DNA from: Lama guanicoe
Taxonomy: Eukaryota
Assembly: GCA_013239625.1 (NCBI GenBank)
Contig: MU055609.1
Coordinates: 12,233,171-12,297,170 of the forward strand
Direction of reading: 5' to 3'
DNA: 64,000 nt
Shown: positions 5,846-11,800 of the stretch, piece after piece
Numbering within the stretch: position 1 is the stretch's first letter
Layout: every line of letters begins with the position of its first letter
Made by a program: the position numbers and the translations under genes
The notes under the pieces: model-generated
Database searches by the model: none
Told to the model about the DNA's origin: nothing
Seen by the model: only the letters and a program-made list of their open reading frames with translations

Positions 5846-8800
5846 ATGGTAGGAAAAGGTGCCAAAGGGATGCTGGTGAGTACAGGGAAAAGGACAGTGG
5901 TGGGTGAGGGGTCCTGAGCACCATCCCCTCTGGGGCCTGCTGTCAGCTGCTTACTGTGACAGGACAGCCTAAGAGTCTCCATGGGGCCTCGAGTCTGGCA
6001 CTGCCTGGGCTCCTGAGGGCTAGGGCTGTCCCAGGCTCAGGTGGGCAGTCCCTCACCCAGCTCTGAGCCCATAGCAGGGCAGATTCTTCCACAGAGCCCA
6101 AAAGGCTGCCAGGAGGCAGGAGATACACTCCCCATCCTCACCACAAGAGACCCTGGAGAGAAGGCTGCAGTTTGTCCTGCTGGAAGGACAGCAGGACACC
6201 TGGGGTTGTCCCCTGGTGGACGCCCCGGCACCTCCACCCCCACTCCCACCTTGTGCTCTGCCTGCCACGGGGAGCATTCAGTATGTGCTCATCAACAGGT
6301 TCTCAGACCATGTCCGGTTTTTCTCTACTTCCACTCTGAGAAGTAGCACAGAGCATTTCATCTTGAATCCTGTCCTGATCTCGGGAAACTTCTCTCGCTC
6401 CCTTCCCCAAGCCACAATCCTCCCTTGCCCCAGTCTCTCTGAGAGGCAGCAGGCAAGAGCAGGGCCCGCTAAGTGAGGGAAGGCGGCTCACTGATGGACG
6501 GAGCAGGCTGGCACTGGAAGCAGGAACCAGGACAGAGATGCCAGATTATTACCCCAAGGGCAGTGGTTGTAGTTCTTCTCTTGGGATCTTGCTTTGGGAG
6601 CCAGCGAGACTGGGCAGCTGTCAGGGGAGGGAGCCAGTGACTGAGCATGGCCCCTCCCTTGGCTCCTCCCTTCCCCACATCAGTCCCTCCTGTTGCTCTC
6701 ATTCAGTGAAAGATTGACTGGCTCAGGGTCTCTGCTGAGCCCTCCCCAAACAAGCCCTGTCTCTCACTAAAGATTGCTGGGACTCAAAGTATTTGGTCCA
6801 AAGAGAATGGTCTGTGGGAGGGAGCTGGACAGTTCTGCTCCAGGCTGAGGACCCTCTGTCTTAACCCTGTTCTGAACTTCCAGCATCCGGCCCCTTGGGC
6901 CTGCTCTGGGCTGGCCCCCTTCTGATTGGAACAAGTCTGGATGAACTAAGCTTCTCAAAGTATTCCTGAGCCAACCTGAACTCTGGGTTCTCAGATGTGG
7001 GCAGAGATGGAGGTCTCATGACCTGAGTATTTGCTAGCAGTGGATGTCGTGAGAATCAGAAATGGCCTCGCCCTTCCTGGAAGGGACAGAATTGCCTTGG
7101 GTCTGTCGCAGGAAGCGGGGTGTGGCCCTGCCCCTCCCTCCATAGAGATTAGGAGTCCCAGGAAACTTAAGAAACCCTCTGAGTACTCGCTGGCTGCTCT
7201 ATTTTCTCTGGAGTGACCCTGAAAGGACTGGAGCCTGCAGGCAGGAGAGATGGGGGACCCACGTGGGCAGTTTAGGGAGCATGAATCACAATGTCCCAGA
7301 ATCCCTGCTGGAGCTGAGCTTCCTAGACCCTGGGTTCAGCCAGCCAGCAGGCCAGTCGCTTTGTGGAAGGGAATGCTGGCTTGGGACGCCCGTTCCCAGC
7401 ACCAGGATGTGCCTAAAGATAGCTGGGTCTTGGTTTCCTCCATGCCCTCTGCTCTTTGACTTCTGCCCGCCACTGCTGTGACTGAGGCTCGTAGCATGTC
7501 CCCTGGGCACCCCCAGTAGTTGCTCGAGATTCTATTCCTGCCTTTTTCTCAGCTCTGCTGATGACCTTGGGCTACGCTATTCTTGGGCTTCAGTTTGGAA
7601 CCAAAGCTGCCTCCATTCAGTGTTTGTCTCTAGGATACAGCTTCTGAGGAGGGCCAACTCCCCTAGTTAACCTAGGCAGCTGAATCAGGACTTTGTTAGG
7701 TGCCTGTGGTCCCCTAAGGGCAAATGACTAAGGATGCTTCTTCTCTGAATGCCATGTTGGGGCAGGATAGAGGGTGCTGAGGGCCATGCATGTAAGCCAG
7801 TGGCACTTGGACTATCCCAGGTCTAAGGACTCTATTTCCATTTGTGCCCTGGTATGCTGGGAGTGGGCAGGTGGCCCCTGCCATTGGGTCCTCACCTCCA
7901 TCCCCCTTTGCCCCAGGTTTGGGGTGTGAGACATGGGTCTCTTCAGTGTCCACAGACGCCCTATGTCATCCTTGGAGCTTCCGCTGGGCTCTTCATGCGG
8001 CCAGTGCCCTGTGGAGGGCAAACCACTTCCCAGCACGTGCCCAGGCCCACATGCCTGCTGCACGTGTCCNNNNNNNNNNNNNNNNNNNNNNNNNNNNNNN
8101 NNNNNNNNNNNNNNNNNNNNNNNNNNNNNNNNNNNNNNNNNNNNNNNNNNNNNNNNNNNNNNNNNNNNNNNNNNNNNNNNNNNNNNNNNNNNNNNNNNNN
8201 NNNNNNNNNNNNNNNNNNNNNNNNNGGGAGGTGGGAGTGGTTCTTTCATGGAGACCTAGTGACTCTGTACACATGTGGGTCTGGGCTGCTTAGGGCTCAG
8301 AGGACAGGGAGCTGGAGGAGAAGATCCCAGGATAGGAGAGCCCCACTGGGTCAGTTTGAACTCCACGGCCTCACACCAAGTCCACAAGTTGGCTGACTCA
8401 GTCCCCTCCCCTGTGCCCACTCCTCCCTCGTACAGCCTCTTGGGCAGAAAGGCCTTGGTGAGCCTCACTGGCCTGTCCTCATATCTTTGAGGGCACCAGT
8501 TGCTTCTACCTCAGGGAAGCCTCGTGTTGAATAAGAGCAGAGTCACTAGGGCCCTGGGTGCCTCTTCCTGGAAGGCTTTGCAAGCACCTCAGACCACCTG
8601 GGGCTGCCCCACCCTGACCTGTTCTGTTATGCTCTGATGAGAAGGTTTGGATACTTCTTGTTTGCAGTGTCCATCATAGGACTTGGTGCACAGTGGGTAC
8701 TCATTCAGCCCAAGTCCTGGCATGTAGGAAGTGCCCTACTGGTACAGGCTTGACACATATTGGGAGCTCACCGAGCACAGGGCTTGGCACACGCTGGGCC

Positions 8801-11800
8801 CTCCCTTGGTAGAGGGTTTGTCTGTCACTAGGCACTCACCTAGCATGAGTCCCAGCATGTGATAAGTGCTCAGCTAGTATAGACATGGCACACACTGGGC
8901 ACTCCCTTAGTGGAGTACCAGGCGCACAGTAGGTGCTCACTCTGCTCAGGGTTAGGCATATAATGGGTCCTCGCCTGGCACAGAATTCGGCATGCATGGG
9001 GCATTGGTCTAGTGCAGGACCTAGCACACCACAGGGGCTCACTGGCATGGGGCTGACACACAGTGGGTGCTTTCCTAGCATGGGTTTGACAGTGGGTCTT
9101 CTCCTAGCTCAGGGACTGGCACAGAGGAGGAGCTCTCTTAGCCGGGACACCCTGAGCAGTGACTTAGATAATCAACTAGATGATCCTAGGTGATCCTAGA
9201 TGTGCAACCCCCACCTCCCAATGAAATGGACACTTTCTAGATTCAGAGGAAAAGGCCTAACCTTCCTCAGGCTTCCTCTCTGGACCCAGGACCTGCCCTC
9301 CATTTCCCTTGGTCTCCCTCCCATCCCCAGGCTTCCTGGAGCCCATCTACTCAGCCCTGTGCCCTCACCTCCCTTCACACGGCTTCCCTGCAGCCCTGCC
9401 ACCCCAAGCACTTCTCAGCCCTGGCTCAGCAAGACTTTCCCTCAGAGTCACAGGGCACAACAAAGCCCCTAGACTCCTTAGCCCTCTGGAAGGATGCCCA
9501 CTCTTATTAAGAAAAGTCAGAAGCGGGGTTGGGGGGAGTCGGCCTCCCTGAGTGGGGCTGGAGCAGCTGGATCCCACTAATGAGGCCTCATTACGGCCAG
9601 GACCCAGCTGGGCTGCTGCCGCCTCCTGTCCCCGTGGCCAGAGCCAGAGAAAGCTGTCCAGCCAGGGCTGCCTGTTCTGGGCACCCAGCCCAGGCCAGGG
9701 CAGCCAAGCCCAGAGCCCACCCTGGGTGGAAGTGAGCATTTGGGCATCATGGGTGACTGGGCCTTCCTGGAGCCAGTGGCCTAGCCAGGGCCTTGGCCCT
9801 CAGTCTGGGCTCGCAAGAAGTCAGCAGAGCGTGTCTGGGTACCCGGCTGCATGAGGCTGCCCAGGGAGCAGCTCAGTCACTGGGGTCTGAGGCCATTCTG
9901 AGGAGACTTACTTGAGCCAAAGTCATCCCCCCTCTTCTCCCCCTAGATGGGCTTAATAACACATCTACCTCAAGGAGCTATTGGGAAAATTCAATGAGTT
10001 ACTGCATATAAAAAGTGTTTAGGACGGCATCTGGCTCATAGTAAGCACTTAATATGTATTATCTAATACTATTATTATAATGCTCACTAGCTTCGATGAT
10101 GAGTGGATACTATCCCCATTTTAGAGATGAAGAAACTAAGACCAGACAAGTTNNNNNNNNNNNNNNNNNNNNNNNNNNNNNNNNNNNNNNNNNNNNNNNN
10201 NNNNNNNNNNNNNNNNNNNNNNNNNNNNNNNNNNNNNNNNNNNNNNNNNNNNNNNNNNNNNNNNNNNNNNNNNNNNNNNNNNNNNNNNNNNNNNNNNNNN
10301 NNNNNNNNNNNNNNNNNNNNNNNNNNNNNNNNNNNNNNNNNNNNNNNNNNNNNNNNNNNNNNNNNNNNNNNNNNNNNNNNNNNNNNNNNNNNNNNNNNNN
10401 NNNNNNNNNNNNNNNNNNNNNNNNNNNNNNNNNNNNNNATCTCCTTAGGCAGGAGCTGGGGTTTGACCCTTGGCCTGTCTGACTCTAAGGCCTTTGCCCT
10501 TTTTTTTCCTTTTAAAGTCACCTTGCCATGTTCCCATTGGGGTCACCACACTTACCAAACTCATGGAAAGCTCTTTTACAGCAGAATTCGTATGTCCTTC
10601 CATCTGACAGGTGTTTACTGAGATCCTACCACGTACCAGCCCCTTGGCCAACTTACCAGTTTCCAACTTATCAGTTGTGCCTTTCCTGGACCAGAATATT
10701 CATGCCCACCTTCCTGGGCATCAGCTGGAGACTGACCAGTGAGTGTGGCCTCAGAGAAGAGGGACTGGGTGGGTCTGAGTGATGTCCCACCCCAGTCATG
10801 TGCTAGCCTGTACCCATTCAGCACACACTCCCAGAGTGAACACCTCAGGTTCTGAGCATCACAATACAAATCCCCAAGGGTCTGTCTTCTGCAGCTCCAC
10901 TTTGGACTCTGTGGTAGCTCTTGGCTAAGGCCATCTTTCTTCAGACAGGTGACAGTGCAGTTCATGGGGGTCAGAGTATTTTTGCACGGTCAGTCACATT
11001 CTCCAATGGGGACGCTCCATCATCTTGGCTGGTTGGGGGTCCCTAGCTCCCAGGGGATTACTCCAGGGCCCCTTATCCCCCAGTCTGCAGCACTCTAGGA
11101 AGTCTGAGATTCTCTGGTAGTGCCCTGTGGGCTGCGCCCCCCTTCTTCCTGCCCCTCCACTATCTCGAGTCCCAAGTGGCACCCAGTCACCCTACCAGGA
11201 GCCCACCAAGTGCCAGGCCTGTGTGCTCAGAAGCATCTGGGCCCCAGACCCTGTTCTAGGTTGGGAGTGAGCCGCCCTCTCTCTCTCTCTGCTGTACCCG
11301 CTCTGCCTCACCCTGTGGTTGCGAGTGTGTGTGTGTGTTTTTTGTTCCAATAACTTGCTGGGAACAAGGGAGAAACACAACAAACCCCACGCCTCGCTCT
11401 AGCCGTGGAGCACCCGCGCTGGGCTGCAGGGGGACTGGCCGGAGGGGGAGGGCCAGAGGAGGGGGGAGGCAGAGCTTCGGGAGGAGATGAGGTGAAAGTA
11501 ATTGATGCTGCCCAGCCGGCAGTGGAAGAGGCAGGGGATGCGTCAGTGTCGCCTGGAGCTGGCAGAGGTGTGAATGAGCGGAGGAGACACGCACACACGC
11601 TCCGCTCCAAGCGCTCACCCTGGGATGGCCGCGGCTCAGGGACCTGTGGCCCCCTCCTCCCCAGAACAGGTCAGTCACCTTCCAGAAGGTCGAGCCCCTC
11701 TCCCTGGTGCCAGGCAGGCTGGGAGNNNNNNNNNNNNNNNNNNNNNNNNNNNNNNNNNNNNNNNNNNNNNNNNNNNNNNNNNNNNNNNNNNNNNNNNNNN

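What the first reader, a model, noticed from the sequence alone, without database searches (positions are those of the whole stretch)
8670..9143. Ancient 34-bp-period tandem array made from the LINE-2 3' terminus inside an SLC6A9 intron
Seen: about 14 head-to-tail units whose starts are mostly spaced 33-34 nt (8704, 8737, 8771, 8805, 8839, 8873, 8906, 8940, 8974, 9008, 9042, 9074, 9103, 9137). Examples: CCGAGCACAGGGCTTGGCACACGCTGGGCCCTCC, CTTAGTGGAGTACCAGGCGCACAGTAGGTGCTCA and CCTAGCTCAGGGACTGGCACAGAGGAGGAGCTCT. Known: the consensus resembles the L2a 3'-terminal motif (CCTAGCACAGTGCCTGGCACATAGTAGGCGCTCA), the region that holds the L2 3' stem-loop; L2 3' ends also gave rise to miR-28-family microRNAs and target sites. 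Inference: the terminal motif was reiterated (RT slippage/template jumping or local unequal crossover) long ago, since units are very diverged while the period is retained. It lies about 2.4 kb upstream of the GlyT1b first exon and could act as a multivalent protein/RNA-binding platform or enhancer. Standard repeat finders would probably miss it or call it fragmented L2.
Basis: partly seen in the sequence, partly recalled or inferred. Interest (0 to 1): 0.7.

Follow-up and report, generated by a model that had tools for sequence, protein, structure and literature searches.

The report
Fossil LINE-2 hairpin tandem arrays
Inside an intron of the glycine-transporter gene SLC6A9 sit 14 worn head-to-tail copies of the end hairpin of the extinct LINE-2 jumping gene, and two more arrays with the same 34-base unit lie within 5.6 Mb on the same contig; they are likely relics of one ancient duplication, and no function is shown.

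Summary
The array is real: 14 units at 8670-9136, period 34 (z 7.25; 0 of 1000 shuffles), missed by TRF. It lies between the GlyT1a and GlyT1b/c first coding exons of SLC6A9. All units stack on one stretch of a profile built from solo elements only, the L2 3'-terminal stem-loop. New here: genome-wide pattern searches found two more such arrays (9 and about 6 units). Both sit between an L2 body and its tail, both have the same best junction and period, and both lie on the same 23-Mb contig of a 2.05-Gb genome (chance about 1e-4). The three share bases that are rare in solo L2 ends. Units are as diverged as solo L2 ends and show no neighbour gradient, so expansion likely dates to L2 activity. 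The array folds no better than shuffles. Best reading: a fossil L2-tail minisatellite with one founder, copied locally, now decaying. Reiteration by the L2 reverse transcriptase stays open. Conservation and chromatin were not tested. Young L2-tail tandem repeats are already catalogued, so this is a new variant of a known kind.

The parts
8670..9136 (+). Array A: 14 head-to-tail 34-bp units of the L2 3'-terminal stem-loop region
   Evidence: 264-269 bits against a solo-only profile, while unselected solo ends reach at most 38 bits
9137..9190 (+). Stub of a 15th unit and a possible decayed L2 tail
   Evidence: stub; tail score 1.7 bits at the best of 6 offsets, below the null maximum of 2.0: inconclusive
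8646..8669 (+). Short remnant of L2 sequence that normally precedes the stem-loop
   Evidence: first-unit hit starts at profile position 61; Viterbi path starts at position 46; the 55-column body test is weak (-0.4 bits, null maximum 5.2)
5846..5875 (+). Upstream short coding exon of SLC6A9 (GlyT1a start, label recalled); places the array in an intron
11574..11669 (+). First coding exon of GlyT1b/c, 2.44 kb downstream of the array
   Evidence: PDB 8wfj, E 1.1e-4
23047..23141 (-). Solo L2 3' end in the window, a reference for the unit (others at 15750-15837+, 20408-20529-, 50166-50270+)
   Evidence: E 1.2e-16

Best explanation
The array is 14 decayed tandem copies of the LINE-2 3'-terminal hairpin region, likely made by one duplication in a young L2 copy, likely expanded and copied to two other L2 ends in the same chromosomal region, and likely without function today. 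Shown: unit identity, period, the junction shared by three arrays, embedding of arrays B and C between L2 body and tail, age equal to solo L2 ends, no excess RNA structure. Inferred: (1) the first duplication arose by hairpin-assisted slippage, since the unit (positions 1-34) nearly coincides with the 36-nt stem-loop (-3 to 32) and has 1-2 bases of microhomology; (2) slippage or unequal exchange expanded it while units were still identical; (3) recombination between near-identical young L2 ends carried the array to the two other sites; (4) neutral decay since.
For: The same junction and period fit best in each of the three arrays separately (the margin is small for C, 53.2 vs 52.0 bits). Shared bases: G at position 11 in 17 of 25 units vs 18 of 86 solos; T14 11/27 vs 13/89; T34 8/27 vs 7/83; C22 16/27 vs 24/90. 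B and C units fit a profile of A better than profiles of 14 random solos (16 of 2000 reach it; 62 of 2000 without position 11). All three lie on one 23-Mb contig, chance 1.3e-4 under uniform placement. Identity to the solo majority is 67/62/64% vs 68-69% for solos. Within-A identity is 55% vs 52% A-to-solo, with no neighbour gradient (1316 of 2000 shuffles reach it). RNA fold z -0.10. Young DNA-level repeats at L2/MIR tails exist here with periods 17/18, 30 and 39 and in human, so ordinary slippage at this hairpin happens.
Against: Conversion among Alus is reported to act within about 10 kb (PMC8230782, passages), whereas these arrays are 1.0-5.6 Mb apart. Unit order is not colinear between A and B (547 of 2000 shuffles reach it), and 1.2-kb flanks do not align apart from a shared MIR-like copy. 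The shared bases may only mark an older L2 subfamily: G11 solos form such a group, though they carry G22 rather than C22. Units within an array are not independent, so the Fisher p-values are too small. The search is incomplete: simulated sensitivity is 0.43-0.74 for 6-14 units and likely lower for arrays as worn as B and C. A keeps exactly 34 bp in 10 of 14 spacings vs 38% of 82 solo segments, and its outer-stem pairs are kept at 82% vs 65% in solos; this could hint at constraint, though A was picked for its regularity.
Confidence: 0.5

Rival explanations
1. The L2 reverse transcriptase made the arrays. During target-primed reverse transcription it jumped from the 5' base of the stem-loop back to its 3' base and recopied the hairpin several times, or it retrotransposed a source copy that already bore the array.
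For: The unit nearly equals the 36-nt stem-loop. The eel UnaL2 stem-loop studied by NMR is also 36 nt, and its RT slips on the terminal repeat (PMC1636434, passages). B and C sit between body and tail with different detectable body lengths (about 70 and over 300 bp). Units separated at about the time of insertion.
Against: Retrotransposition should disperse copies, yet none was found off contig C5752. The reported UnaL2 slippage concerns the short terminal repeat, not the stem-loop. Young repeats at L2 tails arise without an active L2.
Confidence: 0.25
2. Three independent slippage events at a hairpin hot spot, each in its own L2 copy; the clustering is chance or a regional effect on retention.
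For: No shared flanks or unit order. The hairpin could set the period. Two weak possible 34-bp dimers or remnants were seen on other contigs (L212, L220; 46 and 43 bits).
Against: Young repeats at L2/MIR tails use varied periods (17/18, 23, 24, 26, 30, 39, 44; 35 and 36 in human), none 34. Clustering p about 1e-4 and shared bases.
Confidence: 0.12
3. Array A was co-opted as a multivalent enhancer or RNA-binding platform for the GlyT1b/c promoter or for splicing.
For: It lies 2.4 kb upstream of an alternative first exon. It holds six NFI-type half-sites (1 of 500 shuffles reach it; motif recalled, and expected from the unit itself). Spacing is regular. L2 copies are enriched for transcription-factor binding (PMC7145552, passages).
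Against: Divergence equals that of solo L2 ends. A scores within the range of pseudo-arrays of random solos (207-278 bits). No full NFI palindrome and CpG o/e 0.14. No excess folding and no Rfam family near its gathering score. No gene was identified near B or C (0 of 87 open frames matched Pfam).
Confidence: 0.13

Closest known systems
TE-derived minisatellites, Ahmed and Liang 2012 (PMC3389668; results sections and supplement rows seen)
   Same: Tandem repeats grown from part of a transposable element. The supplement lists two human repeats from the same L2 terminal stretch (36 bp x 2.89 in L2b; 35 bp x 2 in L2a). The paper also describes multi-locus repeats and warns that old ones escape detection.
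   Different: Those are young (at least 95% identity) with 2-3 units and other junctions. These have 6-14 units at about 50-55% mutual identity, one shared junction, three loci on one contig; the paper saw no genomic hot spots.
L2-clade 3' tail: stem-loop plus terminal repeat, eel UnaL2 (PMC1636434 and PMC5135761, passages)
   Same: The solo profile has a 36-nt stem-loop followed by a short repeated tail.
   Different: UnaL2 has one stem-loop and slips on the terminal repeat; here the stem-loop itself is reiterated.
L2-derived microRNAs and target sites (PMC6433296, passages)
   Same: Both derive from the L2 3' end.
   Different: The array is intronic, not in a 3' UTR; no miRNA family matched it and it has no excess hairpin structure.
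Non-allelic gene conversion among Alus (PMC8230782, passages)
   Same: Sequence transfer between dispersed near-identical repeats, favoured between neighbours.
   Different: Reported range about 10 kb and base replacements; here a 200-470-bp array over megabases would have to be moved.

Membership tests
LINE-2 3' terminus | Matches an abundant dispersed family with a long upstream body and a short repeated tail | tested here: met
   De novo profile from solo copies, about 90-120 per Mb in the sample, extended to about 370 columns; units hit positions about 70-104
LINE-2 3' terminus | Tail shared with the MIR SINE | tested here: met
   A second de novo family with a different body shares the same terminal stretch; MIR has an L2 tail (PMC3747384 Table 1). 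The label MIR for that family is recalled.
LINE-2 3' terminus | Agreement with annotated L2a/L2b terminal sequence | tested here: met
   Two rows annotated L2b 371-399 and L2a 3266-3291 carry the same motif on the opposite strand (compared by eye). No Dfam model was available.
LINE-2 3' terminus | Linked ORF2 reverse transcriptase upstream | tested here: inconclusive
   49 open frames upstream of long-bodied solos gave no RT match; copies are old and truncated
LINE-2 3' terminus | Subfamily assignment (L2a/b/c/d) | not testable with these tools
   No Dfam or Repbase library; units carry G11 with C22, seen in 4 of 92 solos
TE-derived minisatellite | Head-to-tail units mapping to one stretch of the TE consensus | tested here: met
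TE-derived minisatellite | Units more alike to each other than to dispersed copies (gradual local expansion) | tested here: inconclusive
   A-A 55% vs A-solo 52%; B-B 50.5% vs 49.8%; C-C 49% vs 50%; no neighbour gradient
L2-derived microRNA precursor | Rfam miRNA match or stable hairpin | tested here: not met
Exapted enhancer | Cross-species constraint and chromatin or reporter activity | not testable with these tools
   No relative genomes held; no read data were laid

The most novel reading that the evidence does not exclude
The three arrays are fossils of reiterative reverse transcription: an L2 enzyme jumped across the base of its own recognition hairpin and wrote 6-14 copies of it into single insertions, a telomerase-like concatemer reaction on a structured 34-nt template in a mammalian LINE, which for an unexplained reason left its traces in one chromosomal region.
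Probability: 0.15. Interest if true: 0.72.

Novelty: new variant of a known kind. Interest (0 to 1): 0.38.

Why it matters
If the founder reading holds, this is a clean case of a repeat array moving between dispersed retrotransposon ends over megabases early in mammalian history, and it shows that old TE-derived minisatellites stay hidden from standard tools. If the enzyme reading holds, it would extend L2 template slippage from the short tail to a whole hairpin, which can be tested with fish L2 elements. No effect on glycine transport is shown.

Tried and rejected
BLAST-type search of the genome with the array found only itself. A young 34-bp GC-rich VNTR (L063-L065) matched one pattern but is unrelated by eye. 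Old arrays at the microhomology period 31 and the whole-stem period 36: 2 and 3 matches, none multi-unit (at most 2 mismatches, so weaker than the period-34 searches). A scan of 1.07 Mb of fetched sequence, mostly from C5752, found only B and C above 38 bits. Segmental duplication: flanks do not align, but at this age that test is weak. Rfam on the array, the window and two solo ends gave nothing near a gathering score; a mir-1271 match on one solo tail (E 4.1) is not counted as evidence. Pfam scans for genes near B and C and for an L2 RT were empty. Sequencing runs holding the stretch were listed, but no reads were laid, so copy-number variation, expression and divergence in relatives remain open. 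Earlier-findings look-ups by words, sequence and relatives returned nothing on this array. Ten paper searches turned up no description of old multi-unit L2-terminus arrays; the library lacks most subscription journals, and Dfam/Repbase notes were not seen.
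Full report
Observation. The stretch 8670-9136 holds 14 head-to-tail units. Autocorrelation peaks at lag 34 with z 7.25 and harmonics at 68, 101 and 135; none of 1000 dinucleotide-preserving shuffles reached that value at any lag. 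Spacings are 34,33,34,34,34,34,33,34,34,34,34,32,29,34. TRF at score 30 does not report the array. The gene is SLC6A9: an exon matches human GlyT1 at E 1e-45, the GlyT1b/c first exon begins at 11574, and a short coding exon lies upstream at 5846-5875 (its label as the GlyT1a start is recalled). The array is thus intronic and on the sense strand. The genome is 2.05 Gb with no relatives held; earlier AI notes call it camelid (unchecked).

What the unit is. No Dfam library was available, so I built profiles de novo from solo elements in about 0.86 Mb of window and genome sequence. Seeds were picked with an array-derived matrix, but no array sequence entered the alignments. Two families emerged that share one terminal stretch. 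One has a long body and ends in a short repeated tail; the other has a different body. This is the L2 and MIR arrangement (MIR with an L2 tail: PMC3747384 Table 1; family labels recalled). Two human repeats annotated as L2a 3266-3291 and L2b 371-399 carry the same motif (PMC3389668 supplement, compared by eye). An RT domain could not be shown upstream (49 frames, no RT match). Array units stack on profile positions about 70-104. The solo majority folds into a 36-nt stem-loop from unit position -3 to 32 in one of three folding windows, with a competing fold in another; the repeated unit is positions 1-34. L2-clade tails are known to consist of a stem-loop and a terminal repeat (PMC1636434, PMC5135761; passages).

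Sister arrays. Pattern searches of the whole genome found two more arrays. B (L005, contig C5752 at 17.79 Mb) came from a three-motif pattern (1 of 54 matches). C (L133, C5752 at 16.75 Mb, minus strand) came from a junction pattern: 43 matches against 4 for the control, of which 4 in A, 1 in B, 1 in C, and 37 others scoring at most 36 bits. B has 9 units, an L2 body (14.7 bits, null maximum 5.2) and a tail (9.1, null maximum 2.0). C has about 6 units, a body of over 300 bp (E 1e-15) and a tail. For A the body and tail are weak and inconclusive. A scan over possible junctions gave the same best start and end, period 34, for each array separately.

How complete the search is. One search gave 14 matches (4 A, 2 B, 3 an unrelated VNTR, 5 chance). 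One search gave 6 (3 A, 1 B, 2 a young 17/18-bp VNTR). One search gave 17 (1 B, 16 at most 40 bits). One search gave 92: 3 in A or B, 27 auto-fetched and 20 of the other 62 scored at most 46 bits, 1 had been scored before, 41 were not examined. One search gave 178 (control 61): 100 were listed, clusters appeared only at A and B, 20 further places scored at most 34 bits, 78 were never shown. Pseudo-arrays made from real solo units would be caught with probability 0.21, 0.43, 0.58 and 0.74 for 3, 6, 9 and 14 units, similarly for AT-rich units; B and C score below such pseudo-arrays, so real sensitivity for worn arrays is lower. Finding both extra arrays on the same 23.2-Mb contig has a chance of 1.3e-4 under uniform placement. 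L2-end density there (93 per Mb) was not above two other sampled contigs (120 per Mb); the genome average was not measured.

Age and kinship. Units match the solo majority at 67% (A), 62% (B) and 64% (C), solos at 68-69%. Within-array identity is barely above array-to-solo identity (55 vs 52%, 50.5 vs 49.8%, 49 vs 50%), and neighbours are no more alike than shuffled orders. Expansion therefore likely ended about when L2 was active (100-300 Mya entry per PMC6433296 abstract). The arrays share bases uncommon in solos: G11 (17/25 vs 18/86), T14, C22, T34. B and C fit a profile of A better than random solo profiles (16 of 2000; 62 of 2000 without position 11). Against this, unit order is not colinear and flanks do not align, and G11 also marks an older solo subgroup.

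Function. The array RNA folds no better than shuffles (z -0.10), and single units give z from -1.9 to +1.7 (6 units). Rfam shows nothing near a gathering score. Six NFI-type half-sites follow from the unit itself, there is no full site, and CpG o/e is 0.14. Regular spacing and 82% retention of outer-stem pairs in A (solos 65%; B 66%, C 44%) are the only hints of constraint. Cross-species and expression data were not obtained.

Mechanism. Shown: a reiterated L2 hairpin with one junction at three clustered loci, as old as L2 itself. Inferred, best reading (0.5): one hairpin-assisted slippage in a young L2 copy, expansion while units were identical, transfer to two nearby L2 ends by recombination, then decay. 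Young repeats at L2/MIR tails with periods 17/18, 23, 24, 26, 30, 39 and 44 show that DNA-level duplication there is ordinary. The weak step is the transfer, because Alu conversion is reported over about 10 kb. Rivals: reiteration or mobilisation by the L2 enzyme (0.25), which explains embedding and timing but not clustering; three independent events (0.12); co-opted regulatory element (0.13).

Comparison and verdict. It is a member of the TE-derived minisatellites and of L2 3' ends. L2-terminal repeats of 35-36 bp with 2-3 young copies are already catalogued in human. Old multi-unit arrays with a shared junction and regional clustering did not turn up in ten paper searches, which miss most subscription journals and repeat-database notes. 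An earlier AI note on another genome describes a satellite with an embedded L2-like tail (unchecked); that is a different architecture. Verdict: real, new variant of a known kind, interest 0.38.

Noticed in passing
L005 1364-1676 (G000:C5752 about 17.79 Mb, +): Array B: 9 units, same junction, between about 70 bp of L2 body and an L2 tail.
   Followed up: yes
L133 minus strand about 1480-1960 (G000:C5752 about 16.75 Mb): Array C: about 6 irregular units after more than 300 bp of L2 body and before an L2 tail.
   Followed up: yes
L250 1290-2010 (G000:C7292 about 4.96 Mb): Young 17/18-bp minisatellite of roughly 40 copies grown from the 3' half of an L2 hairpin, with a run of N inside.
   Followed up: partly
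L013 1489-1581; L253 1492-1572: Young exact tandem copies at L2/MIR-type tails with periods 30 and 39.
   Followed up: partly
window 11134-11260, minus strand: Weak cluster of two or three unit-like stretches (30 bits, within the range of solo ends) just upstream of the GlyT1b/c promoter.
   Followed up: partly
L220 702-755; L212 680-750: Single units flanked by junction-like sequence; possible remnants or dimers of period 34 on other contigs (43 and 46 bits).
   Followed up: partly
window 9935-10142: Two MIR-like copies tail to tail on opposite strands, overlapping at their 3' ends.
   Followed up: no
92 solo L2 ends in the sampled loci: An older subgroup marked by C3, G11 and G22 stands out among solo L2 ends.
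   Followed up: partly
L063-L065 (G000:C3616 about 14.22 Mb): Unrelated young GC-rich VNTR, also about 34 bp.
   Followed up: no
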